A DNA stretch of 64,000 bases from Pseudomonadota bacterium (GTDB lineage Bacteria; Pseudomonadota; Alphaproteobacteria; Caulobacterales; Caulobacteraceae): NCBI GenBank assembly GCA_020161365.1, contig JAIUNU010000007.1:186853-250852 (forward strand), read 5' to 3'. A program made the translations under genes and the position numbers. Shown one piece after another: positions 1 through 28,869 of this stretch. Positions within the stretch are counted from its first letter, which is position 1. Every line of letters begins with the position of its first letter. The notes below the pieces were generated by a model. That model searched no databases and had not been told where the DNA came from. It saw only the letters and a list, made by a program, of their open reading frames with translations.

Positions 1-385
1 GGTGCGGCACGATCGCGGGCAGGGCGTCGGCCCCGAACGAATAACCGATCAACACGACCTCCCGCCGGCCCCACCGCGCCCGATAGTTGTCCAGCAGCAA
101 GGCCAGGTCCTGGGCTGCGCTTGCCGCAGATCGCCGGGTGCGGAAATAGGCGAGGGAATCAACGCCCACCGTCGGCACGCCGTGGTCAGCCAGATGTTGG
201 GCGACCTCCTGGTCTATGGCGCGCCAACCGCCGTCACCTGAATAGAATACGGCCAGAACGTCACCCGTCTTTGCGCTGGGAATCGGGATCTGAACAGCCG
301 CTGGCGCAGGCGTCCCGCCAGCGCTCAGAACGGCGGCTGCGAGCGGCGCGACAAGTGCGGAGAGAAGGCGCAAGCGTGAGACCAT
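1..385 (-). CDS. VirJ/AcvB-family alpha/beta hydrolase (putative lysyl-phosphatidylglycerol hydrolase); 3' end runs off the window
   Basis: Not in the ORF track. Hand translation from ATG at 385 gives MVSRLRLLSALVAPLAAAV (signal-like) ... LAVFYSGDGGWRAIDQEVA ... GVDSLAYF ... VVLIGYSFGADALP. SGDGGW and GYSFGAD are hallmark VirJ motifs. Confidence 0.75.
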   Translation of the reverse strand, partial: MVSRLRLLSALVAPLAAAVLSAGGTPAPAAVQIPIPSAKTGDVLAVFYSGDGGWRAIDQEVAQHLADHGVPTVGVDSLAYFRTRRSAASAAQDLALLLDNYRARWGRREVVLIGYSFGADALPAIVPH

Positions 386-647: not shown

Positions 648-2048
648 ATGGCTCAGTACGACGTCGTCATCATCGGTGGCGGTCCTGGTGGCTACAATGC
701 GGCGATCCGCGCCGGCCAGCTGGGCCTGAAGGTCGCGATCGTCGAAGGCCGCGGCAAGCTGGGCGGCACCTGCCTCAACGTCGGCTGCATGCCCTCGAAG
801 GCCCTGCTGCACGCCTCGGAACTGTACGCCGCCGCGACGGGTCCTGAGTTCGCCAAGCTGGGCATCGAGGTGAAGCCCAAGCTGAACCTGCCTCAGATGA
901 TGGCCCAGAAGGCCGAGAGCGTCGAAGCCCTGACCAAGGGCGTCGAATTCCTGATGAAGAAGAACAAGGTCGACTACGTGAAGGGCTGGGGCCGCATCGA
1001 CGGCGTCGGCAAGGTCGTGGTCAAGGCCGAGGACGGTTCAGAAACCACCCTCGAAACCAAGAACATCGTCATCGCCACGGGCTCGGAACCCACCCCGCTG
1101 CCGGGCGTGACCGTCGACAACAAGCGCATCATCGACTCCACCGGCGCCCTGTCGCTGCCGGAAGTGCCAAAGCACCTCGTCGTCGTCGGCGCCGGCGTCA
1201 TCGGCCTGGAGCTGGGCTCCGTCTGGAAGCGCCTGGGCGCGGAAGTCACCGTGGTCGAGTACCTGGATCGCATCCTGCCGGGCACCGACACCGAAGTGGC
1301 CAACGCCTTCCAGAAGATCCTGGTCAAGCAGGGCTTCAAGTTCCAGCTGGGCGCCAAGGTCACCGGCGCTGCCGCTTCGGCCAAGGGCGTGAAGCTGAGC
1401 TTCGAGCCGGTCGCCGGCGGCGAGGCCCAGGCGATCGAGGCCGACTATGTGCTGGTCGCCATCGGTCGCCGCCCGTACACCCAAGGCCTGGGCCTGGAGA
1501 CGGTCGGCGTCACGCCGGACAAGCGCGGCATGATCGCCAACGACCACTTCAAGACCGGCGTCGACGGCGTTTGGGTGATCGGCGACGTGACCTCGGGTCC
1601 GATGTTGGCCCACAAGGCCGAGGACGAGGGCGTCGCCTGCATCGAGATGATCGCGGGCAAGGCCGGTCATGTGAACTACGGCATCATCCCGGGCGTCGTT
1701 TACACGAGCCCCGAAGTGGCCACGGTCGGTCAGACCGAAGACGATCTAAAGGCGGCGGGCGTCGCCTACAAGGTCGGCAAGTTCCCGTTCCTGGCCAACA
1801 GCCGCGCCAAGATCAACCACGAGACCGACGGCTTCGTGAAGGTGTTGGCCGACGCCAAGACCGACCGCATCCTGGGCGTCCATATGGTCGGTCCGAACGT
1901 GGGCGACATGATCGCTGAGTACTGCGTGGCCATGGAGTTCGGCGGCGCGTCGGAAGACGTGGCCCGCACCTGCCACCCACACCCGACCCGTTCGGAAGCC
2001 TTGCGCCAGGCGGCCATGGGTGTCGAAGGCTGGACGATGCAGGCCTAA
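648..2048 (+). CDS. lpdA: Dihydrolipoamide dehydrogenase (E3)
   Basis: GGGPGGY FAD motif, [13 protein letters not shown] redox disulfide, [11 protein letters not shown] motif, C-terminal HPTRSE. Confidence 0.97.
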
Positions 2049-2072
2049 GGGCCGCTCTCATCGCGCATTGAG

Positions 2073-2107
2073 GGCGGGGTTTCGCGAGGCGAAACCCCGC
2101 CTTTTTT
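2073..2107 (+). terminator. Intrinsic terminator of lpdA
   Basis: 13-bp stem GGCGGGGTTTCGC/GCGAAACCCCGCC followed by TTTTTT. Confidence 0.85.
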
Positions 2108-2134
2108 GTCTCTGCGTCGCAGCGCGCTTGAACG

Positions 2135-2167
2135 AAAAAAGGCCCCGCCTTGAGGGAAGGCGGGGCC
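2135..2167 (-). terminator. Intrinsic terminator of the MCP gene
   Basis: 11-bp stem GGCCCCGCCTT/AAGGCGGGGCC preceded by AAAAAA, a U-tract on the minus strand. Confidence 0.8.
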
Positions 2168-2230
2168 AATCTGCTTTCGGGGAGGGACCCCGCCGAGGGA
2201 GAGGCGGGGCTTACGCGGTACTGAAGCGGC

Positions 2231-4246
2231 TTAGAACTCTTCCCAGTCGTCGGCCGAGGCGGCCGGCGCGGCTGAGCTCTTGGCGAAGCTGGCCAGCTTG
2301 GCCTGGGCGGCGGCGACGGGGTTGGCGCCCGGGCGGCTGGTGGCGCTGGCTAGGGCCGGGCCCTTCGCGACGGGCGCGGGCGTCGGGGCGCGGGCCGCAG
2401 GCGGCGGGGCAGTGGGGCGGCTGGCGCGCTTTGAGCCGCCGGCGACCGCCATGCTCGCCGAGCCCTGCACGCGGAACTTCGAGATCATCTGCATCAGATT
2501 GCCCGCTTCGCTCTTCAGCGCGTGCGAGGCGGCGGTCGACTGCTCGACCATGGCCGCGTTCTGCTGGACGGTCTGGTCCATCTGATTGACGGCGGCGTTG
2601 ACCTGGTTGAGGCCGGTGGCCTGTTCCTGGCCCGACGCGGCGATTTCGCTGACCAGGGCGTCGATCTCGCCGACCTTGGTGACGATGGCCTCCAGGGCCT
2701 CGCCGGTCTGGCCGACCATCGACACGCCTTGATTGACCTGCTGCGACGAGGTGGAGATCAGGGTCTTGATCTCCTTGGCGGCGTCGGCCGAGCGCTGGGC
2801 CAGGGCCCGCACTTCCTGAGCGACGACTGCGAAGCCGCGGCCGGCTTCACCCGCGCGGGCGGCCTCGACCCCGGCGTTCAGCGCCAGGAGATTGGTCTGG
2901 AAGGCGATCTCGTCGATGACGCCGATGATCTGGCTGATCGACTGCGACGACTTCTCGATCTGATTCATGGCGTCGACGGCGTTGCGGACCACGACGCTGG
3001 AGCGCTCGGCGTCGCCACGGGTCGAGCCGACCACCTTGCTGGCTTCCAGGGCGCCGGCCGACGAACGCTTCACGGTGGCGGTGATCTCGTCCAGGGCGGC
3101 GGCGGTTTCTTCCAGGCTCGCGGCCTGCTGCTCGCTGCGGCGCGACAGGTCGTCGGCGGCCGAGGCGATCTCGTCCGAGCCCGCGCCGATGCTGCTGGCG
3201 GCGTGGACGATGGTGCCCATGGCCTCTTCCAACTGGGCGATCGCGCCGTTGAAGTCGTTCTGCAGGCGCTTGTAGGCCTCGGGGAACTGCTGATCCAGGC
3301 GATAGGTCAGGTCGCCGTCCGACAGGCGGGCCAGACCGCCGGCGATGGCCTCCATGACGAAGGCCTGCTCTTTGGCGGCGGCTTCGGCCATCTCCTGGTT
3401 TCGGCGACGCTCGGCCTCGGTCTCGGCGCTGGCGCGCTGCTGAGCGGCCTCGGCGGTGCGCAGGGCCACGGCGTTGTCCTTGAACACCTGGACAGAGCGG
3501 GCCATGGCGCCGACCTCGTCCTTGCGGTCCGCGCCGCGCACCTCGACGTCGACCGAACCCTGGGCCAGGATGTCCATGGTCTTGGCTGTGGCGATCAGCG
3601 GGGCCGCGATCTTCTTGGAGCCGATCCATAGCGCGAACAGCATGGCCGAACCTGCCGCGATCAGCCCGAACAGGATCGAGAACATCGTCCCCGCAGCGGC
3701 CTGCTTCGAGGCCTTGTCCACCATCGCCCGGGTTTCGTCGTTGTGACTGTTGGTGAACTTGGTGACGTCCTTGCTCAAAGCGGCGATGTCGGGATCGATC
3801 ACCGCCATGACCATGATCGCGGCCTCGTCGGCGTCCTGCAGGCCCAGGTCCGCGCCCTGGCGGGCGCTGGTGTAGATCTTTTCCAGACGGGCGCTGAAGT
3901 CCGCGACCATCTTGGCTGAAGCCGGCTCGACCTTCTTGATTTCCGCCAACTGTTCCTTGGCTTCCTTGTAGGCCGCGTCGATCTCGTGACTGGCCTGCTG
4001 GGCTTCTGACGACGTTCCCGCGTTGGCCACAGAACGATACGAGGCGTAGCCCAGCGCCATCAGGCGTCGATTGAAGCGCGATGAGGCCAGCTCGGCGGGC
4101 GCGCGCTCGTGGACGAGCACCTTGGTATTGGCCTCGATCTTACGCGCCTGCATGGCGTTCATGCCGACGATCGCCAGGGCGATGACGGTCAGGACGACGG
4201 CCGGCAGGGCGACCTTTGTTGAGATTTTCAGGTCGTCGAACTTCAT
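2231..4246 (-). CDS. Methyl-accepting chemotaxis protein
   Basis: Two TM helices, HAMP domains, IAFQTNLLALNAGVEAARAGEAGRGFAVVAQEVRALA signalling hairpin, C-terminal DWEEF pentapeptide. Start placed at MKFDDLK. Confidence 0.95.
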   Translation of the reverse strand: MKFDDLKISTKVALPAVVLTVIALAIVGMNAMQARKIEANTKVLVHERAPAELASSRFNRRLMALGYASYRSVANAGTSSEAQQASHEIDAAYKEAKEQLAEIKKVEPASAKMVADFSARLEKIYTSARQGADLGLQDADEAAIMVMAVIDPDIAALSKDVTKFTNSHNDETRAMVDKASKQAAAGTMFSILFGLIAAGSAMLFALWIGSKKIAAPLIATAKTMDILAQGSVDVEVRGADRKDEVGAMARSVQVFKDNAVALRTAEAAQQRASAETEAERRRNQEMAEAAAKEQAFVMEAIAGGLARLSDGDLTYRLDQQFPEAYKRLQNDFNGAIAQLEEAMGTIVHAASSIGAGSDEIASAADDLSRRSEQQAASLEETAAALDEITATVKRSSAGALEASKVVGSTRGDAERSSVVVRNAVDAMNQIEKSSQSISQIIGVIDEIAFQTNLLALNAGVEAARAGEAGRGFAVVAQEVRALAQRSADAAKEIKTLISTSSQQVNQGVSMVGQTGEALEAIVTKVGEIDALVSEIAASGQEQATGLNQVNAAVNQMDQTVQQNAAMVEQSTAASHALKSEAGNLMQMISKFRVQGSASMAVAGGSKRASRPTAPPPAARAPTPAPVAKGPALASATSRPGANPVAAAQAKLASFAKSSAAPAASADDWEEF

Positions 4247-4318
4247 GGGAACCTCGTCGGCGAACGGTCGCGGCACGGAAAATCGTACTTTTCTCAAACC
4301 CCAGAACGCCTTGACGCG

Positions 4319-4335
4319 GTAAAATCGCGGTTAAC
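4319..4335 (-). promoter_or_regulatory. CtrA-like box upstream of the MCP gene
   Basis: Minus strand reads TTAA-CCGCGAT-TTTAC, one mismatch from TTAA-N7-TTAAC, about 75 nt upstream of a chemotaxis gene. Confidence 0.55.
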
Positions 4336-4407
4336 GGCGGGGTGCAGGATGGCTTGGGTGACAGTCTGCCGCACCCGAATTGGGCTTTCGCACAACCCGT
4401 GCGGGCG

Positions 4408-5337
4408 CTATTCGCGCCGGGCGTCAGCCTTTGGGTGGGCCGCCTGATACGCAGCGAGTAAGCTGGCGGCGTCGACCTGCGTGTAGCGTTGGGTGGTCGA
4501 CAGCGACGCGTGACCCAGGAGGTCCTGGATCGCTCGCAAATCGGCGCCTGCGCCCAGCAGATGGGTGGCGAAGGCGTGCCGGAAGGCGTGGGGGGTGACC
4601 CGGTCCGAGAGCCCCAGCCGGCCGCGAAGGCTCTGAACAAGGGCCTGCACATGGCGGGGCGACAAAGGACCGCCCCGCTTGGCGCGAAACAGCGCGTCGT
4701 TCGGCGTCAGGGCGAACGGCAGCGCGTCGAGATAGAGATCGATGGCGTCGCGAACCGCGTCCAGCATAGGCACGATACGGACCTTGCCGCCCTTGCCCAA
4801 GATACGCAGCGTGGCGCCAAGAGGAGCGTCGGCCTTGCGGAGCGACAGCGCCTCGCTGATGCGAAGGCCGCCGCCCCAAAGCAGGGTCAGCACCGCTTCG
4901 TCGCGAGCGGTCTCCCAAGGTTTGCGCTCGGTGTCCTCGGCGGCCTCGGCGATCAGGTCGCGGGCCTGATCTTCGGAAACGGGTCTGGGCAAGCCAACCT
5001 TGAGACGCGGGCCCCGCACGAGATCGATGGCGGCGTTGGCCACGCCATGGCGCTGGTCGAGATAGTGGTGGAAGGCGCGAATGGACGACAACGCCTGCGA
5101 CAGCGAGCGCGGCGCCAGTGCGTTTTCGCCCTGACGACGGAAGGCCAGATAGCCGCGAAGATCCGCCGTCGAGACCTCGCCCATCGCCGAAAGGCTCAGC
5201 GCCTCGCCGCGATGGGCTTCCAGAAAGTTCAGATAGGCCAGGACATTGTCGCCATAGGCCCGCACCGTGCGCGGCGAGGCCCGGCGCTCCAGCGTCAGGT
5301 GGTCCAGCCAGGCGACATAGGCCTGGCGGGCGCTCAC
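4408..5337 (-). CDS. xerC: Tyrosine recombinase XerC
   Basis: Catalytic R in GLRISE, K in GKGGKVR, HAFRH, LLGH and Y in TQRYT. The GTG start overlaps the DUF484 stop (GTGA). DUF484-xerC order is typical. Confidence 0.9.
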   Translation of the reverse strand: MSARQAYVAWLDHLTLERRASPRTVRAYGDNVLAYLNFLEAHRGEALSLSAMGEVSTADLRGYLAFRRQGENALAPRSLSQALSSIRAFHHYLDQRHGVANAAIDLVRGPRLKVGLPRPVSEDQARDLIAEAAEDTERKPWETARDEAVLTLLWGGGLRISEALSLRKADAPLGATLRILGKGGKVRIVPMLDAVRDAIDLYLDALPFALTPNDALFRAKRGGPLSPRHVQALVQSLRGRLGLSDRVTPHAFRHAFATHLLGAGADLRAIQDLLGHASLSTTQRYTQVDAASLLAAYQAAHPKADARRE

Positions 5338-6014
5338 AGGACCGGCCAGCGTTCGGCCGTGCGCTCCACGACGCGGGCCAGGAAGTTGACCAGCTCTGTG
5401 CCCATGTCGGGCGTGAAGCCCTCCGGGTCGGTCGAGCCAAAGGCGATCAGCGCCTCGCGACGGGGCTCCCATATCGCCATGCGGACCAGCGCCATGCTGC
5501 GGATCGTGTCGGCCTTGTCGTCGAACAGCGGCAGGGCCGGCGCGAAAAAGCCCATCCGGGCGATCGGCGCGTCGCCCAGCAGCATGTCCACCTGGCTCTC
5601 GGCCAGCGCGCGCCAGCCCGCCGGGACGCGGTGAGGCCCTTCCAGGGCGATCACGCCGGCGGCGTGGCCAAAGCGCAGCTGGGCCATCTCGTCGACCCGC
5701 CGGGCGAGGTCGGAATGGTTCCGGGCGTCGAGCATGTCGATCACCGCCGCGTGGGTCTGGGCCTGGGCCGAGTAGTTGGCGCGGGCGTTCGCCTCGATGG
5801 CCTGGCGCACGGTCGCCTCGCGGCGGTGTGCGGCCGCAGCCCGAGCCAGGGCCCGCGGCCCGAAATCGACGACATTGGCGGCGTCGACCCGCAGGCCCAG
5901 TTCGCCCAGCAGGCTCTCGTCCTGGCGGAGGAACTCCGGCTCGGTCCGGAGGAAATCGCGGACGCTCTCAGGATCCACGACCGTCGTCTTGGTCGCTCGC
6001 GTCGCGTCGCTCAT
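5334..6014 (-). CDS. DUF484 family protein (GAF-like)
   Basis: VRDFLRTEPEFL N-terminus, LIAFGSTDPEGFTPDMGTELVNFLARVVE C-terminus, directly upstream of xerC. Confidence 0.85.
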   Translation of the reverse strand: MSDATRATKTTVVDPESVRDFLRTEPEFLRQDESLLGELGLRVDAANVVDFGPRALARAAAAHRREATVRQAIEANARANYSAQAQTHAAVIDMLDARNHSDLARRVDEMAQLRFGHAAGVIALEGPHRVPAGWRALAESQVDMLLGDAPIARMGFFAPALPLFDDKADTIRSMALVRMAIWEPRREALIAFGSTDPEGFTPDMGTELVNFLARVVERTAERWPVL

Positions 6015-6066
6015 CTCGTCCCCACCGGCTTTGCACCAAACTGGCCCCGATGAAGCGGCAAGACGG

Positions 6067-6081
6067 TTAACACCCGCTTGA
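6067..6081. promoter_or_regulatory. Possible CtrA-like box in the DUF484-xerC / priA divergent promoter
   Basis: TTAA-CACCCGC-TTGA, one mismatch from TTAA-N7-TTAA. Confidence 0.3.
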
Positions 6082-6138
6082 TGACCCGTCGTCGGCGGGT
6101 CTCGACCTGGGGACGGTTTCGCGGCAGAAGCTCACGCC

Positions 6139-8298
<2,160 letters not shown>

Positions 8299-8312
8299 GC
8301 AGGCCGCATAGA

Positions 8313-8350
8313 AAGAAGCCCCCGGAGTGAGACACTCCGGGGGCCTTTTC
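8313..8350. terminator. Bidirectional terminator between priA and the TerC gene
   Basis: 12-bp stem GCCCCCGGAGTG/CACTCCGGGGGC with A-rich and T-rich flanks. Confidence 0.8.
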
Positions 8351-8378
8351 TGGCTGCGGATCCTTCCGGATCGCGGCG

Positions 8379-9167
8379 CTAGGGCTGTTTTTTGGCGTCG
8401 CGTCTGCGCGACAGCATGTTCAGGCCCTCGACCCCGGCCGAGAAGGCCATGGCCGTGTAGATGTAGCCCTTTGGCACGTGGGCTCCGAAGCCTTCGGCGA
8501 TCAGCACGGTGCCGATCATCAGCAGGAAGCCCAGGGCCAGCATGACCACGGTCGGGTTGGCGTTGATGAAGTTGGCCAGCGGATCGGCGGCCAGCAGCAT
8601 CACCGTCACCGCGACCAGAACGGCGATGACCATGATCGGCAGGTGATCGGTCATGCCCACGGCGGTCAGGATCGAGTCGATCGAGAACACCAGGTCCAGC
8701 AGGATGATCTGGAAGATCGCCGAGCCGACATTGTTGATCACGACCGCGGTCTTGTCCTTCTCGAGCACGTCGTCGCTCTTGCCCGGATCCACCGCGTGGT
8801 GGATTTCCTTGGTCGCCTTCCAGATCAGGAAGACACCACCGGCGATCAGGATCAGATCGCGCCAGGAGAAGGCCGTCTCGAAGCCGGGTTCGCCATGCGA
8901 TCCGACGGGTCCGCTGATTCCAAGGTCGAAGACCGGCGCGGTCAGGCCGACGATAAAGGCGATCGTCGACAGCAGGATCAGGCGCATGATCAGCGCCAGA
9001 GAGATACCGATCCGACGGACCTTCTGCCGATGCTCTTCGGGCAGCTTGTTGGACAGGATCGAGATGAAGATCAGATTGTCGATGCCCAGCACCACCTCCA
9101 TCACGACGAGCGTGACGAGGGCGGCCCACGCGGCTGGATCAGCGGCAAGGCTAAGGATTTCGTTCAT
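8379..9167 (-). CDS. TerC family integral membrane protein
   Basis: [16 protein letters not shown] and [14 protein letters not shown] acidic TM motifs. Confidence 0.9.
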
Positions 9168-9291
9168 GGGTTCCCAATAGGGTTCTGGCTCCGCGCCTCC
9201 CCGCACGGAACCGTGAGAGGGACCAAATGGGGGACGAACGCCCTGCTTGTCGAGGCCTCGTGTTTCGAAAAGCGACGCCGGAGGACGATTC

Positions 9292-10386
9292 ATGCCCGAC
9301 GCCGCGCATATAAGGCCGCTTACAGCCCTTCGCTTCTTCGCCGCGTTCTGGGTGGTGCTCTACCACTACTGGCCCAATCTCGATGTCGGCTTCACCCCGG
9401 CGATCGCGTCCAAGGGCTATCTCGGCGTCGAGGCGTTTTTCGTCCTGTCGGGCTTCATTCTCTGTCACGTCTATCTGAGCGGCTTCGGCGAGGGGCGCTT
9501 TCGCTATGGCGACTTCCTCTGGAACCGTCTGGCGAGGGTCTATCCGCTCCATCTGGCGACGCTGGTCGGCGTCGGCGCCATGGCTTTGGCCGCGACCCTG
9601 GCCGGTCTCGCCGTTGACCCCAACATCCTGTCCTGGCCGTCGCTGCCGGCGAATCTGCTGCTGGTCCACGCCTGGGGCTTCGCGCCCGTTGCAGGCTGGA
9701 ATCACGCCTCGTGGTCGATCTCGGCGGAGTGGTTCGCCTATCTGACCTTCCCGGTCTTCGCCTTCGCCGCCTGGCGGCTGCGCGAGCGGCCAGTGGCCGC
9801 CGTACTCGGCGCCTTGGCCCTGATCGCCGTGATTTATCCGCTGTTCCAGGCGCTAGCGGGCTTCTCCCTGACCGAAGCCACCATCCGCTGGGGGGCGCTG
9901 CGGATCGTGCCGTGCTTCGCCTACGGCTGCGCGCTCCATGCCTTGTGGCGTTCGGGGCGTTTCCCAGCGCGCCTGGCGGGGCCCGGCGCTGCGGCGCTGG
10001 GCTTGGCGACTCTGCTCGCCATTCACGCTGGCGCCCCGGATTTGGGCATCGTCATGCTTCTGGGGGGGCTGATCTTCATGCTCGCCAGCCTCGCTTCGGC
10101 GGGTTCGCGTTTCGCATCGCAGAAGATCTTCGTCTATCTCGGTGAGATCAGCTACTCGACCTATATGATCTGCATCCCCTGGAAGATCCTGGCGATCAAT
10201 GCGGCGACAAAGATCCTGAATATCGATAGCGACAAGTTGCCGCTGCTCGTCTGGCTGGTGATTGTCGCCGCGCTGGTCCCGCTGTCGGCGATTTCGTTCC
10301 ATATCATTGAGAATCCGTGCCGCGAGCGTATGAAAGCTTGGGCGGCGGCATGGCGAAGCCGGCGTCTCGCGGTGGCGGGCGCCTGA
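9292..10386 (+). CDS. Acyltransferase-3 family membrane O-acyltransferase
   Basis: LTALRFFAA...[50 protein letters not shown] upstream. Confidence 0.9.
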
Positions 10387-10456
10387 TAAATACTCTTTTC
10401 ACCAATCGCCTGTAGGGTTATCCCTTCACCCAGTGACGCGGGGGAGTACCCACAGC

Positions 10457-11164
10457 ATGACGAAACGGACGAGGACCCTTCTGGGTTCCCTGGCCGCCGC
10501 CGCCATGATCAGCCTTGTGCCGGTTTCCGGCGCGAACGCTGACGGCTATTGGCAGTGCGTGCCGTTCGCGCGTCTGATGTCGGGTATCCAGATTTTCGGT
10601 GACGCCCGCACCTGGTGGGGCCAAGCCGCCGGCAAGTACGACACCGGGTCGACCCCCAAGATTGGCTCGGTCCTTTCCTTCAAGCCCACCGCCCGCATGA
10701 ATCTTGGCCACGTGGCCTTCGTCAGCCAGGTGCTGACCGATCGCGTCATTCAGGTCACCCACGCCAACTGGTCCGTGATCGAAGGCGATCGCGGTCAGAT
10801 CGAAAAGGACGTCACCGTCGTCGACGTCTCGCCCAACGGTGACTGGACGCAGGTGAAGGTCTGGTACGATCCGATCCGCGACCTTGGCACCACGGTCTAC
10901 CCGACGAACGGTTTCATCTATCAGGACGCCCAGGCGATGAAGATCGCCGTGGCCACCAGCAAGATCGCCCTGGCCCAGAACGCCGTGGTCTCGGCCGCCA
11001 AGTCCGCCGCCAACCAGGTGGCCGCCTCGGTCCGCGCCTCTCCGCTGGACATCATCAGCCAGGCCGCCGACTCGACCGACCGCATCGCGGCGCTGATCGA
11101 AGCCGCCACCGGCGGTGGTTCGCCCTCGAGCGACACCAGCAATAAGCCGAACGCACCGCGCTAA
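10457..11164 (+). CDS. chpA: Secreted CHAP-domain peptidoglycan hydrolase (ChpA-like)
   Basis: Signal peptide, WQCVPFAR catalytic Cys, GHVA catalytic His, HANW. The symbol comes from recalled Caulobacter synteny and is less certain than the domain call. Confidence 0.8.
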   Translation: MTKRTRTLLGSLAAAAMISLVPVSGANADGYWQCVPFARLMSGIQIFGDARTWWGQAAGKYDTGSTPKIGSVLSFKPTARMNLGHVAFVSQVLTDRVIQVTHANWSVIEGDRGQIEKDVTVVDVSPNGDWTQVKVWYDPIRDLGTTVYPTNGFIYQDAQAMKIAVATSKIALAQNAVVSAAKSAANQVAASVRASPLDIISQAADSTDRIAALIEAATGGGSPSSDTSNKPNAPR

Positions 11165-11241
11165 GCCGGGGCGAACACGCTCGGCCTCGGCGCGCGGCTC
11201 CACCTCCAGCGAGGCGGTGGCTGCGACTTTCTGTCGCGATT

Positions 11242-11256
11242 TGAACGGTTGATTAA
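11242..11256. promoter_or_regulatory. CtrA-like box upstream of the pentapeptide-repeat gene
   Basis: TGAA-CGGTTGA-TTAA, one mismatch from TTAA-N7-TTAA, about 70 nt before the ATG. Confidence 0.45.
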
Positions 11257-11324
11257 GGCTGTTCTGGCACGGTGAACGCCGCTTTCGCGTAATCCCGTCC
11301 CTTCGAGCGTTCCGTCACCGAACG

Positions 11325-12566
11325 ATGCCATCCGCCGCGTCCACACGACCGAGCCTGGTCCGTAGCGTCCACCCTTCGGTGGTGCGCGAGGTGCTGGAGG
11401 CGCACGCCCGTTATCTGAAGGGGGTGCCCAACGGGCGTCGCGCGGGGCTGCAATACGTCAATCTCAGCCATTACGAACTGGACGGCGCGGACCTGCGCGA
11501 GGCCGACCTGACCGGGGCCCTGCTGCACGGCGCGTCGCTGCGCGGCGCGCGGCTCAGCGGCGCGACGCTGTACGGGACCGATCTGCGGGATTCGGATCTG
11601 CGCGGCGCCGATCTTTCGCGCTGCGACATGCGTGGCGCCTGCCTGCGCGGCGCCAATCTCGGCGGGGCCAACCTCTCCAACTGCGATCTGCGCGAAGGCG
11701 TCACGGCCGTGCGGGACGAGGAGAAGGGGCTGCGGATTCTCGACCACGCCCAGCGGGCGGGCGAGCTGGATTACGCGCTTCTGCAAGGCGCGAACCTCAA
11801 CGGCGCTCAGATGTCCGGCGCCTTCGCGCGTCAGGCCGACTTCCGGGACGCGGATCTCTCGAATGTCTCCCTGCAGGGCGCGAAGCTCAACAACGCCGTG
11901 ATGGACGGGGCGAACCTCTCCGGCGCCAATCTGCACAACGCCGACCTGTCCAAGGCCTCGCTGCGCCGGGCCGTGCTGGTCGGCGTCGATGTCAGCGGCG
12001 CCGACCTGACGGCCGCCGACCTCAGCGAGGTTCTGCGCGCGCCGCCGCCGATCATCTATATAGACGACCTGCCCCTGGGCGAGGTCCTGGAAGCGCACGA
12101 ACTGTTCTGTAAGTCCGAAGGCCGCGAGGGCAAGATCGCGAATGTTTCCGAGGTCGACTTCCGTCCCCTGCGCCGCCTGAAGAACCGGCGACTGAGCGGC
12201 CTGTCGGCCCCCAACGCGGTGTTCTTCGGCATGGACCTGGAGGGCGTACAATTGCAGGGCGCCAATCTCTCGGGCGCGGACCTGCGCGGCGCCAAGCTTC
12301 GCGGCGCGGACCTTCGTGGCGCGCGCCTGGTCGGAGCGCAGCTGTGCCGGGCCGACCTGTCTGACGCCAAGCTGGGTCCGCTGAAGATCGACGAGGATCG
12401 CGTGATCCGGAGTGATCTGACCCGTGCGGTTCTTCGGGGGGCGAACCTGCGCGGCGCCAGCGCGCCCCGCGCCAGGCTTATCGAGGCCGACCTGTCCGGC
12501 GCGAAGCTCGATGGGGCCGACCTGGGCGGCGCTGAACTGCCGACAGGCTTCCGCGTAGTCGCATAG
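11325..12566 (+). CDS. Pentapeptide-repeat protein
   Basis: Extensive A(D/N)LxG repeats in two blocks, each preceded by an EVLEAH helix. Confidence 0.92.
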   Translation: MPSAASTRPSLVRSVHPSVVREVLEAHARYLKGVPNGRRAGLQYVNLSHYELDGADLREADLTGALLHGASLRGARLSGATLYGTDLRDSDLRGADLSRCDMRGACLRGANLGGANLSNCDLREGVTAVRDEEKGLRILDHAQRAGELDYALLQGANLNGAQMSGAFARQADFRDADLSNVSLQGAKLNNAVMDGANLSGANLHNADLSKASLRRAVLVGVDVSGADLTAADLSEVLRAPPPIIYIDDLPLGEVLEAHELFCKSEGREGKIANVSEVDFRPLRRLKNRRLSGLSAPNAVFFGMDLEGVQLQGANLSGADLRGAKLRGADLRGARLVGAQLCRADLSDAKLGPLKIDEDRVIRSDLTRAVLRGANLRGASAPRARLIEADLSGAKLDGADLGGAELPTGFRVVA

Positions 12567-26479: not shown

Positions 26480-27793
26480 ATGATTCTCGTCGCGCTCGTC
26501 GTCGTCCTTTTCCTCGTTCTGCTGAACGGGGTCTTTTCCATGTCCGAATTGGCCGTCGTTTCGGCGCGTAAGGCGCGCCTGCAAGGCTTCGCCGAACGGG
26601 GCGATCGGGGGGCGAAGCTGGCCCTGGAGATGTCCGAGCATCCGACGCGGTTCCTCTCGGCCGTGCAGGTGGGCATCACCCTGATCGGCATCTTCGCCGG
26701 CGCCTACGGTCAGGCCACCATCGCCGCCGCCCTGGACACCTGGCTGGAAGCCAGCGTCCCGGCCCTGGCCAAGTATTCCGAAGCCATCGCCACGACCACC
26801 GTCGTCATCGGCCTGACCTATGTCTCGGTGATCCTGGGCGAACTGGTGCCCAAGCGCCTGGCCCTGATCTTCCCCGACGCCATCGCCCGCCGCATGGCGC
26901 CGTTCCTGGCCATCGTGGCGACGGTGCTGCGCCCCTTCGTCACCTTGCTGACGGTCTCGACGGCCGCCGTCCTGCGCCTGATGGGCGTACGCGACGAGCG
27001 CAACACCAGCGTCACGTCCGAAGAGGTCGAGGCGGTCCTGGCCGAGGGCGCGGACGCCGGCCTGATCGAGCCCGAGGAGCGGTCGATGATCCAGGAGGTC
27101 TTGCGCCTGGGTGATCGTCCCGTGCGCGTCGCCATGACCCCGCGCCGGGACCTCTTCTGGGTGTCGCTGGCCGACGACACCGAGACGGTGCTGACCGAGA
27201 TCCGCGCCAGCGCCCATTCGCGCATCGTGGTCGCCACCGAGGGCGACCTCGACGGCGATGTCGGCGTACTGCTGAAGAAGGACCTGCTGGACGCCTGCCT
27301 GTCGGGCGAGCCGCTGGATCTCAAGGCCCACGTCCAGCAGCCGCTGGCGATCCCCGAGACCATGTCGCTTCTGAAGGCGCTGCAGCTGTTCAAATCGACC
27401 AGCCTGCACATGGCGCTTGTGGTCGACGAGTTCGGCTCGTTGCAGGGTGCCATCACCCCGCTGGACCTGCTGGAAATGATCGCCGGCGACTTCCCGGAAG
27501 ATCACGACGACGACGAAAAACGCATCATCCGCCGCGAGGACGGCGGCTGGCTGATCGACGCGCGCCTCGATATCCAGGAGCTCAACGACCACCTCGGCGA
27601 GAACTTCGAGGCCGAGGGGGGCTACCACACGGTGGCCGGCCTGATCCTCGACCGCCTGGGCCGCCTGCCGGTTGAAGGCGAGCACGTCGAAATCGGCGGT
27701 TTCGACCTCGAGATCGTCGACATGGACAGCTCGCGGATCGACAAGGTCATCCTCAAGCCCAGCAAGCGTAAGAAGGACGGCCAGGAGGGGTAG
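26480..27793 (+). CDS. HlyC/CorC family membrane protein (CNNM + CBS pair + CorC domain)
   Basis: NGVFSMSELAVVSAR, VQVGITL, GELVPK, HSRI, VVDEFG, HTVAGL. Confidence 0.92.
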   Translation: MILVALVVVLFLVLLNGVFSMSELAVVSARKARLQGFAERGDRGAKLALEMSEHPTRFLSAVQVGITLIGIFAGAYGQATIAAALDTWLEASVPALAKYSEAIATTTVVIGLTYVSVILGELVPKRLALIFPDAIARRMAPFLAIVATVLRPFVTLLTVSTAAVLRLMGVRDERNTSVTSEEVEAVLAEGADAGLIEPEERSMIQEVLRLGDRPVRVAMTPRRDLFWVSLADDTETVLTEIRASAHSRIVVATEGDLDGDVGVLLKKDLLDACLSGEPLDLKAHVQQPLAIPETMSLLKALQLFKSTSLHMALVVDEFGSLQGAITPLDLLEMIAGDFPEDHDDDEKRIIRREDGGWLIDARLDIQELNDHLGENFEAEGGYHTVAGLILDRLGRLPVEGEHVEIGGFDLEIVDMDSSRIDKVILKPSKRKKDGQEG

Positions 27794-27867
27794 GGGGCGT
27801 CGCGGTTCCGGCTGAAGGCCGCACGCACGTGTCGCCGGGAAGGTCGGGTTTCCGGCGGGAGGCTGGA

Positions 27868-27894
27868 GGCGGCTAGCGACCCGTTGCGGAAGTT
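27868..27894 (+). repeat. Left copy of a 27-bp imperfect direct repeat flanking the lower-GC ORF
   Basis: GGCGGCTAGCGACCCGTTGCGGAAGTT, 17/27 identical without gaps to 28228-28254. Confidence 0.5.
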
Positions 27895-27917
27895 CCGCCA
27901 ACGCGGAAAGATGGCCC

Positions 27918-28220
27918 ATGAACTTGGAGTCGATAACGCGTCAGTCCCTATTGGCTTTGTTGGCGCCGGCGGTTTTGATCGCGTTTGGCAGCGTGGTCGG
28001 CGGGCTGATGTTTGCCCGGATCCTATTTCGTGCTGAAAGGCCGTTCGCCATTTCTATGTGGCTGGCGATCGTTTTGTTTCCAGTTTGGATCCTCGCCCTT
28101 CTCGGCATGCGTGCCGGTTCTAAAAAGCTATACCCTCTAGCTGCGGCTTCATGGCTATTCGGCGCGATGGTGGCGATCTACTACGTTTGGCAGCCTTACG
28201 GACGCCTGTGGGGCTGGTGA
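27918..28220 (+). CDS. Small hypothetical membrane protein (100 aa, about 3 TM helices), atypical composition
   Basis: About 57% GC by hand count over 27961-28200, clearly below neighbouring genes. Rich in TTG/CTA/TTT codons, with three hydrophobic segments. Confidence 0.65.
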   Translation: MNLESITRQSLLALLAPAVLIAFGSVVGGLMFARILFRAERPFAISMWLAIVLFPVWILALLGMRAGSKKLYPLAAASWLFGAMVAIYYVWQPYGRLWGW

Positions 28221-28227
28221 CGCCAAG

Positions 28228-28254
28228 GTCCGACAACCACCCTTTACTGACGTT
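28228..28254 (+). repeat. Right copy of the 27-bp imperfect direct repeat
   Basis: GTCCGACAACCACCCTTTACTGACGTT, 7 nt after the ORF stop, followed by a further ATGTCCGCGTTCC half-unit at 28259. Confidence 0.5.
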
Positions 28255-28299
28255 GGCGATGTCCGCGTTCCAACAGCCACTCCAAGACACGACCCAAAG

Positions 28300-28331
28300 A
28301 AAAAGGGCGCGGACCTTGCGATCCGCGCCCT
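28300..28331 (-). terminator. Terminator of the atp F0 operon
   Basis: AGGGCGCGGA/TCCGCGCCCT stem with AAAAA, a U-tract on the minus strand. Confidence 0.8.
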
Positions 28332-28359
28332 CGTCTTGTCTACCCGATGAAGCCGGCCG

Positions 28360-28869
28360 CTACTGCAGCTTGGCGCCCATCTGGCTGATCGCGGCGTCGA
28401 CCAGAGCGTCGCCCTTGGCGCCCGCGAGGCGGGCGGCCAGGACGGTTTCGGCGGCCTGGGCGGCGAGATCCACCGCGGCGGCCTTCACGTCGGCGGCGGC
28501 TTGCGCCTCGGCCTGGGCGATCTTCCGCTCAGCCATTTCGGCGCGGCGCTTGATCTGCTCTTCGAGCTTTTCCTTGGCTTCCTCGGCCAGACGCTTGGCG
28601 TCGGCCTTGGCGGCTTCCAGCATGGCGGCGGCCTGACGCTCGGCGTCCTCGCGTTGGGCCTTGACGTCCGCGAGCAGGGCCTGGGCCTCTTCCCGCAGTT
28701 GCTGGGCTTCGTCGAGTTCGGCCTTGATCTTGGCGGCGTAGCCGTCGAGCGCGCCGAACAGAGCGCCCGGCAGCACCTTCAGAACGACCAGCAGGCCGAA
28801 GAAGATCACCAGGGCGGCCAGAACCCAGAACTCCGGGTTCGAGAAGCTGAACAGGGATTCGTGTTCCAT
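28360..28869 (-). CDS. atpF: ATP synthase F0 subunit b
   Basis: NPEFWV N-terminal TM followed by an Ala/Glu/Lys coiled coil; operon position. Confidence 0.93.

What the first reader, a model, noticed from the sequence alone, without database searches (positions are those of the whole stretch)
27840..28271. Solo gene cassette bracketed by GTCCG..ACCC..CGGA.GTT direct repeats: candidate uncharacterised gene-delivery system
Seen: a 100-aa membrane ORF of about 57% GC with atypical codons, wedged between the CorC gene and the atp terminator. It is flanked in direct orientation by GGCGGCTAGCGACCCGTTGCGGAAGTT (27868-27894) and GTCCGACAACCACCCTTTACTGACGTT (28228-28254), which are 17/27 identical without gaps. 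Extra left-half units lie outside: AAGGTCGGGTTTCC at 27840 and ATGTCCGCGTTCC at 28259. The ORF fills almost all the space between the sites, and no transposase or integrase is adjacent. From recall only: palindromes of the form ATGTCCGC..ACCC...GCGGACRTT recur beside small foreign ORFs in alphaproteobacterial genomes, and I know no characterised mechanism. Inference: these are recombination sites of an integron-like but distinct single-gene cassette system acting in trans.
Basis: partly seen in the sequence, partly recalled or inferred. Interest (0 to 1): 0.78.

Follow-up and report, generated by a model that had tools for sequence, protein, structure and literature searches.

The report
Swappable single-gene cassette in Caulobacter
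A small membrane-protein gene in this Caulobacter genome lies in a 361-bp cassette bounded by a conserved 24-bp motif, and the same chromosomal slot holds different cargo in sister strains, which points to an undescribed integron-like gene-shuffling system.

Summary
The ORF (27918-28220, 56% GC against 68%) and the two 27-mers exist. Their 17/27 identity is not above chance (20% of shuffles). They are, however, two variants of a real Caulobacter motif, GTCCGC-N3-C[C/G]ACCC-N3-GCGGAC: about 234 hits in 127 genus genomes against about 16 for the reversed control.

The decisive result comes from the corC-atpF slot. A near-identical strain (metagenome contig L122) has flanks 97-98% identical up to the two cores, but a 150-nt palindromic element replaces the ORF. 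The closest species, G001, has a third content: a palindrome plus a WapI-like immunity gene.

A 96%-identical copy of the ORF sits in an unrelated context (L085). The shared block starts exactly at the left core.

Six near-identical palindrome copies in this genome are framed the same way. Other genomes carry same-strand arrays of such units, with SUKH, CdiI, ankyrin and pentapeptide cargo.

There is no adjacent recombinase. A highly conserved 208-aa tyrosine recombinase is significantly linked to the motif elsewhere, once heading an integron-like array.

Verdict: a real, site-bounded mobile cassette system. The mechanism (trans-acting tyrosine recombinase) is inferred, not shown.

The parts
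26480..27793 (+). CNNM/CorC-family transporter gene: conserved left context, not part of the cassette.
   Evidence: Pfam CNNM 2.5e-46, CorC_HlyC 5.9e-23, CBS. It is 89-97% identical in G001 and L122.
27832..27852 (+). Terminus of a CIR-like dispersed repeat (TCGCCGGGAAGGTCGGGTTTC). It forms part of the 'target' sequence that precedes the left site.
   Evidence: About 60 copies of CGCCGGGRAGGTCGGG end inverted-repeat elements in this genome. A subset continue about 27 nt later with CGACCC-nnn-GCGGAC. CIR is described in PMC2229807.
27868..27891 (+). Left (U-type) site, GGCGGCTAG-CGACCC-GTT-GCGGAA. The core is at 27877-27882, the left arm is weak and the right arm is strong.
   Evidence: Flank identity with strain L122 runs up to and includes 27882. 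The block shared with L085 starts at 27877. The same site type precedes cargo in G055, G076, G137 and the PE1/PE3 copies.
27883..28242 (+). The swappable cassette: triplet + right arm (GTT-GCGGAAGTT), 23-nt leader, ORF, then left arm + triplet + core (GTCCGA-CAA-CCACCC).
   Evidence: This is exactly the segment replaced by a PE1 palindromic element in L122, while both flanks stay 97-98% identical. G001 has other cargo here. The segment is 96% identical in the unrelated context L085.
27918..28220 (+). Cargo gene: a 100-aa small membrane protein with two strong and one weaker hydrophobic segment. Function unknown.
   Evidence: It belongs to a conserved sparse family (66-96% in 7 metagenome proteins; 33-71% in 4 Caulobacter species) with 20 invariant residues. 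No Pfam, NCBIfam or PADLOC family matches.
28228..28251 (+). Right (D-type) site, GTCCGA-CAA-CCACCC-TTT-ACTGAC. The core is at 28237-28242, the left arm is strong and the right arm is weak.
   Evidence: Flank identity with L122 resumes at 28244. Homology with G001 resumes at about 28229. The same site type follows cargo in all other cases.
28261..28266 (+). Trailing hexamer GTCCGC, 9 nt after the right site. It belongs to the target side.
   Evidence: It is conserved at +9..10 in the consensus of 29 independent sites. It is present after 43% of CCACCC sites against 16% of CGACCC sites, and is shared with L122, G001 and the PE1 right flanks.
28304..28331 (.). GC-rich hairpin, the terminator of the converging atpF operon: conserved right context, not part of the cassette.
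   Evidence: A perfect 10-bp inverted repeat. It is conserved downstream of atpF across the genus even where corC is elsewhere.

Best explanation
Window 27883-28242 is one unit of a dispersed, site-bounded gene-cassette system of Caulobacter.

Grammar of the system:
- Units are separated by a 6-bp core, C[C/G]ACCC.
- Each unit starts with a variable triplet plus the hexamer GCGGAC (often followed by nTT).
- Each unit ends with GTCCGC, a triplet and the next core.
- Cargo is a single small gene, often a polymorphic-toxin immunity type, or a 120-150-nt palindromic MITE-like element.

Shown by comparison: units are exchanged, inserted or lost precisely at the cores, both at solo slots such as corC-atpF and in arrays.

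Inferred: exchange is conservative site-specific recombination on duplex DNA by a tyrosine recombinase supplied in trans.
- A cassette-borne strong site (GTCCGC-N3-CCACCC-N3-GCGGAC) recombines with a weaker chromosomal site. This leaves a left hybrid (weak left arm, CGACCC, strong right arm) and a right hybrid (strong left arm, CCACCC, weak right arm, trailing GTCCGC).
- Strand exchange lies between core position 2 and the right hexamer (ACCCnnn). The variable triplet behaves like a CTnDOT/Tn916-type coupling sequence.

Most likely enzyme (about 45%): the conserved 208-aa catalytic-domain-only tyrosine recombinase encoded once in this genome (contig C9:177215-177838).

The function of the 100-aa cargo is unknown. 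Immunity to a membrane-acting toxin is a guess by analogy with other cargo.
For: 1. Same slot, different cargo, breakpoints at the cores.
- L122 against the window: left flank 143/147 identical through CGACCC; right flank identical from 28244 with 2 mismatches in about 117 nt; PE1 replaces the ORF cassette.
- G001 has two other units in the slot.
- G055 (6-kb array) against G076 (one unit) lie between the same core genes, with homology breaking at the first core and resuming at the last.

2. Same cargo, different context.
- ORF100 is 96% identical in L085, and the shared block starts at the left core.
- A pentapeptide ORF is 91% identical in L090 and G016. The block ends in the right site.
- ORF100 relatives occur in at least 8 contexts, each with the motif on both sides.

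3. Recent activity in this genome. Six 98-100% identical PE1 copies and six >=95% PE3 copies are framed by CGACCC-nnn-GCGGAC...(G/A)CCG(A/C)N-nnn-CCACCC. Diverged copies of the same palindromes lack the frame.

4. The motif is real. There are about 234 hits against about 16 control hits in 127 genomes. A GC trough lies on its 5' side. Neighbouring ORFs have low GC3: 59/78 near, 27/49 farther away, 154/432 baseline.

5. Arm asymmetry is as expected for attL/attR-like hybrids.

6. There is no excess of compensatory arm changes: 13 Watson-Crick of 40 doubles, 16 expected. This fits duplex half-sites, not hairpins.

7. Candidate enzyme.
- In G000 the 208-aa recombinase gene lies directly downstream of a cassette and its right site.
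- In 10 other independent contexts, motif-like sites sit at -110 on the same strand and at +41..+70 on the opposite strand.
- Best score >=14 was found in 3/9 upstream windows (G000 is one of the nine) and 4/10 downstream windows, against 1.6% of control windows.
- In L147 the gene heads a run of five single ORFs, including CdiI_3, each separated by a site.

8. Other enzyme classes are absent. G000 lacks Y1 HUH and IS110-type genes.
Against: - No circle, empty slot or enzyme activity has been observed.
- About half of the recombinase gene contexts show no site (L136, L139, L145, L152, L154).
- Most arrays and five of eight provirus records with arrays have no tyrosine recombinase nearby.
- In G000 itself, generic motif counts are at control level. 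Only the U+TT form stands out, 6 against 0.
- Across the class the pattern is not enriched, 18 against 17.
- Block ends in the two same-cargo pairs are not identical.
- The variable triplets beside six identical PE1 copies are explained only by an assumed heterology-tolerant overlap. That reading places the two hexamers asymmetrically around the overlap.
- The empty asd/ubiH slot has no motif at all, so targets are not simply pre-existing chromosomal sites.
Confidence: 0.65

Rival explanations
1. Site-specific cassette exchange is real, but a different enzyme catalyses it. Candidates are the housekeeping XerC/XerD pair, one of the other eight PF00589 proteins, or a serine recombinase such as the 524-aa one at C2:485768-487342.
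For: G000 has 10 tyrosine and 3 serine recombinase genes. The large serine recombinase lies 1.5 kb from a 358-aa ORF cassette (left site at C2:483108, right site at 484268) and 2.8 kb from a PE1 unit. Half of the 208-aa recombinase contexts lack sites.
Against: A 2-bp serine-type crossover does not explain variable triplets on both sides of identical units. The motif has none of the ATAA/TTAT inner-arm signature of Xer sites; that signature is from established knowledge, and no clear dif site was found for a direct comparison. Only the 208-aa family shows sites at fixed offsets in several unrelated contexts.
Confidence: 0.15
2. The motif is a REP/NIME-like structural or regulatory repeat that accumulates in intergenic 'junkyards'. 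Cargo differences between strains arise by homologous recombination in the flanking core genes after DNA uptake, as in the 'minimal mobile element' model. No dedicated recombinase is involved.
For: The motif often abuts other palindromic repeats. Slots lie between conserved core genes. No recombinase is adjacent to most arrays. The class-wide signal is weak.
Against: In L122 the flanks match G000 right up to the cores, with no donor-type bases. Identical PE1 units sit in diverged flanks at six loci of one genome. The same ORF occurs with the motif in unrelated contexts. None of this follows from flank-mediated replacement.
Confidence: 0.12
3. The motif is a cis-regulatory element (operator, promoter element or 3' stabiliser) of imported genes. 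It travels with them, and its position at block ends is incidental.
For: The left site lies 25-45 nt upstream of the start codons and the right site lies just after the stops. Arms are conserved as sequence, like a protein-binding site.
Against: The same frame encloses non-coding palindromes and ORFs in either orientation relative to the motif strand. Context homology, not just cargo homology, ends at the cores. No Rfam family matches.
Confidence: 0.05
4. The units move by single-strand HUH transposition: IS200/IS605-type palindrome-associated elements, or REPINs moved by a RAYT.
For: The ends carry hexamers in inverted orientation, no target duplication is seen, and insertion occurs next to a fixed short sequence.
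Against: Y1_Tnp is absent from G000 and from 84 of 127 genus genomes, including motif-rich ones. There is no compensatory variation in the arms. Hybrid sites cannot fold.
Confidence: 0.03

Closest known systems
Integrons and CALINs (attC-bounded gene cassettes; IntI tyrosine recombinase)
   Same: Promoter-poor single-gene units of atypical composition. One recombination site lies between successive units and sites share one strand in arrays. Solo units and arrays occur without an integrase (like CALINs). One platform has a tyrosine recombinase heading an array (L147).
   Different: The site is a 24-bp duplex-type motif (6-bp arms, conserved asymmetric core). It is not a 57-141-nt folded attC with RYYYAAC/GTTRRRY boxes, and shows no compensatory changes. 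ORFs occur in both orientations. Cargo includes MITE-like palindromes. The candidate recombinase is 208 aa with the catalytic domain only. Units are scattered over many chromosomal slots. From memory (Cury et al. 2016), integrons are not known in Alphaproteobacteria.
rAID-1 (recombinase-associated acquired interbacterial defence clusters of Bacteroidales; Ross et al., bioRxiv 10.1101/471110)
   Same: [quoted passage not shown] Cargo here includes WapI-like, SUKH, CdiI_3, ankyrin and pentapeptide proteins.
   Different: Different phylum, different repeat and a far smaller recombinase. Most units here are not linked to the recombinase. This study adds nucleotide-level swap junctions.
Neisseria dRS3/NIME arrays and 'minimal mobile elements' (recalled from memory, not tested)
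   Same: A short inverted-repeat motif (6-N8-6 there, 6-N12-6 here) separates 50-150-nt repeat units in arrays. Slots between conserved genes hold different cassettes in different strains.
   Different: The sequences are unrelated. NIME units are non-coding and present in hundreds of copies. Exchange of minimal mobile elements is attributed to flank homology, whereas here the breakpoints lie at the motif core.
pdif modules of Acinetobacter plasmids (XerC/XerD sites flanking gene modules; from memory)
   Same: Gene modules are bounded by short tyrosine-recombinase sites and moved by an enzyme encoded elsewhere.
   Different: pdif sites alternate in orientation and have Xer-type arms. Here the sites are direct, with a different consensus, and chromosomal.
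CTnDOT/Tn916 integration (heterology-tolerant tyrosine recombinases with coupling sequences; from memory)
   Same: Variable, non-duplicated nucleotides flank identical element copies on both sides, next to a short conserved stretch (ACCC here).
   Different: Those are large conjugative elements that encode their own integrase. The variable stretch here is only 3 nt.
CIR (Caulobacter CcrM-associated intergenic repeats; Chen and Shapiro 2003, summarised in PMC2229807)
   Same: The sequence to the left of the cassette ends with a CIR-like terminus. Several left sites lie about 27 nt beyond such termini.
   Different: CIRs are about 110-bp two-armed repeats with GANTC sites and no reported cargo. 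The window holds only about 20 nt of one. The cassette motif is a separate element.

Membership tests
Integron / attC cassette | An adjacent intI gene with attI and the Pc promoter. | tested here: not met
   The nearest PF00589 gene is 23 kb from the cassette. No recombinase was found among 140 motif-adjacent ORFs or 20 larger array ORFs.
Integron / attC cassette | An attC site of 57-141 nt: an imperfect palindrome with R''/R' boxes (RYYYAAC/GTTRRRY) that folds as a single strand. | tested here: not met
   The site is 24 bp, GTCCGC-N3-CSACCC-N3-GCGGAC. Compensatory changes show no excess. Left and right hybrid sites are not self-complementary.
Integron / attC cassette | Arrays of single-ORF units, each separated by one site in the same orientation. 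| tested here: met
   G055, G074, G016 and L147 arrays. ORF orientation is mixed, however.
REP / REPIN with RAYT | A high-copy hairpin repeat plus a Y1 (RAYT) transposase gene in the genome. | tested here: not met
   Stringent copies number 0-9 per genome. PF01797 is absent from G000 and from 84/127 genomes. There is no hairpin covariation.
IS200/IS605 palindrome-associated element | TnpA (Y1) supplied in trans; subterminal hairpins; insertion directly 3' of a fixed tetra- or pentanucleotide. | tested here: not met
   No Y1 gene in G000. A variable triplet separates the fixed core from the unit.
pdif / Xer module | Sites of 11-6-11 bp with Xer-type arms, in alternating orientation. | tested here: not met
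   Sites are in direct orientation in arrays. There is no ATAA/TTAT inner-arm signature. No dif site was found in G000 for a direct comparison.
rAID-1 | A XerD-like recombinase at the 5' end of an array of low-GC immunity genes with repeated intergenic motifs (Bacteroidales). | tested here: inconclusive
   Immunity-type cargo and repeats are met. A recombinase-headed array was seen once (L147). Most units are unlinked. The recombinase is an unrelated 208-aa family, below all NCBIfam cut-offs.
CIR repeat | An approximately 110-bp two-armed intergenic repeat containing GANTC. | tested here: not met
   Only the about 20-nt terminus is present at 27832-27852, and there is no GANTC in 27794-27917.
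Tyrosine-recombinase core-type site (generic) | Inverted binding arms around a 6-8-bp overlap; exchange at the overlap; hybrid sites after integration. | tested here: inconclusive
   The architecture, the breakpoints at the core and the arm asymmetry all fit. Binding, cleavage positions and the enzyme are not testable with these tools.

The most novel reading that the evidence does not exclude
Caulobacter and relatives, and some of their proviruses, possess a previously undescribed cassette-shuffling system. A minimal 208-aa tyrosine recombinase, acting in trans on a 24-bp duplex site with a heterology-tolerant overlap, inserts, excises and swaps single-gene units and MITE-like palindromes. 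The gene units are largely orphan immunity genes against polymorphic toxins. Exchange occurs at many dispersed chromosomal slots and in arrays. This would be an integron analogue in a class where integrons are unknown.
Probability: 0.45. Interest if true: 0.88.

Novelty: new variant of a known kind. Interest (0 to 1): 0.8.

Why it matters
If confirmed, this would be a second, mechanistically distinct solution to the integron problem of capturing and shuffling single genes. It would operate in Alphaproteobacteria, with a very small recombinase, a short duplex site and dispersed solo slots.

It would explain how orphan immunity genes and small membrane proteins spread among Caulobacter strains, and why certain palindromic repeats multiply.

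It would also give a compact recombinase/site pair of possible use as a genetic tool.

The comparative evidence is already at nucleotide resolution. The hypothesis can be tested directly in a standard laboratory organism.

Tried and rejected
- **Chance repeat:** the 17/27 pair alone is not significant, but the 'no feature' reading was rejected after the genus-wide motif test and the strain comparison.
- **Known RNA families:** no Rfam match in the window region or in four array loci.
- **Known protein families for ORF100:** none in Pfam, NCBIfam or PADLOC.
- **RAYT/IS200-type HUH partner:** rejected, since PF01797 is absent from G000 and most genomes.
- **IS110-type DEDD partner:** absent from G000.
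- **Target-site duplication:** the triplets flanking six identical PE1 units do not match each other, so a DDE-type cut-and-paste mechanism was rejected.
- **Hairpin (attC-like or RNA) reading:** no compensatory excess.
- **Pre-existing chromosomal att site:** the empty asd/ubiH slot has no motif.
- **Recombinase next to arrays:** none found among 140 + 20 ORFs. Provirus records have only ordinary end-located integrases.
- **dif comparison:** no clear dif site was found in G000 with E. coli-like patterns, so this led nowhere.
- **Earlier scan notes:** nothing on record.
- **Literature:** no paper describing the motif was found. Chen and Shapiro 2003 is not held.
Full report
**1. What is in the window**

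The finding lies between a CNNM/CorC-family gene (26480-27793, +) and the converging atp operon (atpF 28360-28869, -; then atpF', atpE, atpB). A 100-aa ORF occupies 27918-28220. Its GC is 56.1% against 68.0% for the window and 67-68% for its neighbours, and a local trough of 0.545-0.58 covers 27900-28300. A perfect 10-bp hairpin at 28304-28331 is the atp terminator.

This is the best ungapped match between the two intergenic regions, but 19.7% of shuffles do as well, and the repeat finder does not list the pair. Taken alone, the 'direct repeat' is not evidence.

**2. The ORF is a real gene, but not a resident one**

Its product has no family in Pfam, NCBIfam or PADLOC. It does belong to a conserved sparse family:
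- seven metagenome proteins of 100-103 aa at 66-96% identity;
- relatives in four Caulobacter species at 33-71%;
- a frameshifted copy in G067 and a truncated one in G062;
- 20 invariant residues across the family.

The ORF is absent from 24 congeners and 16 other Caulobacterales sampled first. Named records place the family, and hence the genus, in Caulobacter.

Every copy sits in a different neighbourhood:
- after ispH (G067);
- between asd and a FAD-binding monooxygenase gene, here called ubiH (G137 and contigs with P0003);
- in a run of small unknown ORFs (P0007);
- next to CsbD (L085).

**3. The motif is real**

Around each of these copies the same short sequences recur. CGACCC-GTT-GCGGA(A/C)-GTT lies 25-45 nt before the start codon. 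GTCCGC-nnn-CCACCC-nnn-(degenerate GCGGAC) lies just after the stop.

The pattern GTCCGCNNNCCACCCNNNGYGGAC (<=1 mismatch) matches about 234 times in 99 of 127 genus genomes. The reversed control matches about 16 times. Across 400 genomes of the class it is not enriched (18 against 17), although some copies look genuine.

In 29 independent sites a third hexamer, GTCCGC, follows at about +9.

Around 28 sites chosen by pattern alone, mean GC drops to 0.61-0.64 over about 800 nt on the 5' side only, against 0.67 further out. ORFs within 250 nt of sites have GC3 <0.75 in 59/78 cases. The comparison values are 27/49 for ORFs farther away in the same loci (Fisher p=0.02) and 154/432 for a G000 baseline from the same crude ORF caller.

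**4. Decisive comparison at the very slot of the finding**

Only the closest species, G001, shares the corC-atpF junction. In other species the two genes are far apart. G001 keeps both flanks, but between them it has two other units: a palindromic element, then a full site GTCCGC-AAT-CCACCC-ATT-GTGGAC, then a 131-aa low-GC ORF that matches WapI-like immunity proteins.

A metagenome contig from a near-identical strain (L122) gives nucleotide resolution. Its left flank is 143/147 identical through CGACCC (window 27882). Its right flank is identical from 28244 onward, with 2 mismatches in about 117 nt. Between them a 150-nt palindromic element, PE1, replaces the ORF:

...CGACCC|tgg-GCGCACTTTG-PE1-GCAATG-ACCGAC-ATC-CCACCC|ctt-actgac...

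So the swappable unit is window 27883-28242. The breakpoints lie at, or within, the two cores.

**5. The same grammar elsewhere**

- **Same flanks, different cargo.** G055 has a 6-kb array and G076 a single unit between the same two core genes. Homology stops at the first core and resumes at the last.
- **Same cargo, different context.** L085 carries ORF100 at 96% identity, and the shared block begins exactly at 27877, the left core. A pentapeptide-repeat ORF is 91% identical in L090 and G016, with the block ending in the right site.
- **Recent amplification in this genome.** Six PE1 copies (98-100% identical) and six PE3 copies (>=95%) are each framed by [weak left arm]-CGACCC-nnn-GCGGAC...(G/A)CCG(A/C)N-nnn-CCACCC-nnn-[weak right arm]-N9-GTCCGC. 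The many diverged relatives of these palindromes lack the frame.
- **More ORF units in G000.** These lie at C3:~189965-190600 (134-aa membrane protein, 45% GC), C9:~177980-178278 (78 aa) and C2:483108-484291 (358 aa).
- **Arrays.** G074 has 17 sites in 9.5 kb, in two arrays diverging from one point. Right-to-left site pairs 83-86 nt apart recur in several genomes.
- **Proviruses.** Five provirus records carry same-strand arrays, with right and left sites 25 nt apart.
- **Recognisable cargo.** SUKH/SMI1-KNR4, WapI-like, CdiI_3, ankyrin, pentapeptide, DUF4272 and DUF559 were found. Most cargo has no family.

**6. What the site looks like mechanistically**

Among 131 distinct sites with a perfect core:
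- CCACCC sites have strong left arms (5.16/6), weaker right arms (4.60/6), and the trailing hexamer in 43%;
- CGACCC sites have weak left arms (3.96/6), better right arms (4.84/6), and the trailing hexamer in 16%.

Left junctions almost always carry CGACCC and right junctions CCACCC. This is what attL/attR-like hybrids of a strong cassette-borne site and a weaker target would look like. It places the exchange point 3' of core position 2.

The triplet after each core is variable and is not duplicated beside the six identical PE1 copies. Together these observations confine exchange to ACCCnnn, a 7-nt interval whose last three positions tolerate heterology. CTnDOT and Tn916 coupling sequences behave this way (comparison from memory). 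This point is unresolved, because it places the hexamers asymmetrically around the overlap.

Double changes in the arms are not preferentially compensatory (13 of 40, 16 expected). That argues for duplex protein-binding half-sites rather than a folded attC-like or RNA hairpin. No Rfam family matches.

**7. Which enzyme?**

Nothing is adjacent to the finding. The nearest tyrosine recombinase gene is 23 kb away. Arrays generally lack one.

G000 has no Y1 HUH gene and no IS110-type gene. It has ten PF00589 genes and three serine recombinases. Only two of these 13 loci have motif sites within 4 kb.

One is a 524-aa serine recombinase 1.5 kb from a cassette.

The other is an intact 208-aa tyrosine recombinase with the catalytic domain only (C9:177215-177838). 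It lies directly downstream of a left site, a 78-aa ORF and a right site, all on the same strand. This protein:
- is below every NCBIfam cut-off, with weak XerC/XerA/invertase similarity;
- has no solved relative;
- belongs to a very large family, with at least 8000 proteins at E<=1e-20; the 120 best are nearly all 208 aa long and mostly 80-99% identical, and the named sources are Caulobacter, Phenylobacterium and Caulobacteraceae.

In ten further independent contexts, motif-like sites occur at fixed offsets: -110 on the same strand (L141, L142) and +41 to +70 on the opposite strand (L141, L142, L147, L148). Windows with a best score >=14 were 3/9 upstream (G000 is one of the nine) and 4/10 downstream. 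Only 1.6% of random windows from the same loci reach that score, which gives binomial p of about 3e-4 and 1e-5.

In L147 the gene is followed by five single ORFs, including a CdiI_3 immunity protein. A site lies between each ORF and the next, except after the last, where only a weak (13/18) match is found. This is an integron-like platform.

About half of the contexts show no site. I rate this enzyme as the most likely partner, at about 45%.

**8. Comparison with known systems**

The behaviour is that of integron cassettes and CALINs, and, for cargo and layout, of Bacteroidales rAID-1 clusters (10.1101/471110). The defining integron features are not met: there is no attC structure and no linked IntI.

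The REP/RAYT, IS200/IS605 and pdif definitions each fail on features tested here. Neisseria NIME/dRS3 arrays and 'minimal mobile elements' resemble it in layout (from memory), but exchange there is attributed to flank homology, which the L122 junctions argue against.

I found no description of this motif or system in the searchable literature or in earlier notes of this scan.

**9. Verdict**

- **Observation:** partly confirmed. The ORF and sequences are real, the pairwise repeat statistic is weak, and one 'half unit' was misassigned.
- **Interpretation:** supported in its essentials. This is a site-bounded, swappable, single-gene cassette acting without a linked recombinase.
- **Shown:** unit boundaries at the cores, mobility between contexts, recent amplification in this genome, arrays, and a statistically linked candidate recombinase.
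- **Inferred:** conservative site-specific recombination, the position of strand exchange, the identity of the enzyme, and any function of the 100-aa protein.

Noticed in passing
window 27832-27852; G000 genome-wide (e.g. C1:474256-474415): About 60 inverted-repeat elements of roughly 100 bp end in CGCCGGGRAGGTCGGG and contain GAATC. They probably correspond to the published CIR repeats. Several have a left-type cassette site about 27 nt beyond their end.
   Followed up: partly
window 28293-28332: The atpF terminator hairpin (AAAAAGGGCGCGGACCTTGCGATCCGCGCCCT) recurs at 92-97% identity at other loci in many Caulobacter genomes. It looks like a shared or mobile terminator-like element.
   Followed up: no
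window ~4468-4977 (-): A Xer-like tyrosine recombinase gene (PF00589, E 6.8e-36) lies 23 kb from the cassette. It is probably the housekeeping xerC or xerD.
   Followed up: no
G000 C9:177215-177838 (-), outside the window: An intact 208-aa tyrosine recombinase with the catalytic domain only, from a very large and highly conserved family. Motif sites lie at fixed offsets around the gene in several unrelated contigs. In L147 it heads an array of five site-separated ORFs that includes CdiI_3.
   Followed up: partly
G000 C3:189965-190600, C9:177980-178278 and C2:483108-484291: Three further ORF cassettes in the same genome: a 134-aa membrane protein at 45% GC, a 78-aa membrane protein, and a 358-aa ORF. 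Each has a left-type and a right-type site.
   Followed up: partly
L082 (G074:C24:54000-68000), positions 1920-11422: Seventeen motif-like sites in 9.5 kb form two arrays on opposite strands, diverging from an 81-nt spacer between two outward-facing left sites. G000 C2:482992/483108 shows the same head-to-head arrangement.
   Followed up: partly
L094/L095 (G041, G015), asd/ubiH junction: A MITE with about 33-bp terminal inverted repeats (CCCGTCATTCCCGCCCTTGTGGCGGGAACCCCT) encloses a motif-like site. Sister species have an empty 29-nt junction with no motif, and G137 has the ORF101 cassette there.
   Followed up: partly
L123, L126, L129, L130, L131 (IMG/VR provirus records): Same-strand arrays of the sites occur among small ORFs in proviruses. 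Right and left sites there are only 25 nt apart start to start. L131 also encodes a Mu F-like head protein.
   Followed up: partly
G000 C1:526064, C4:50031, C7:96170: Three near-palindromes of the form (G)CATAA-AGATATC-TTTATG were found while looking for dif. One begins with TGTCCGCATAA. Their nature is unknown.
   Followed up: no
L121 (Ga0187844_10010902): Another corC orthologue whose downstream region holds a different palindromic repeat and an rnhA-like gene instead of atpF. This confirms that the corC-atpF adjacency is lineage-specific.
   Followed up: no
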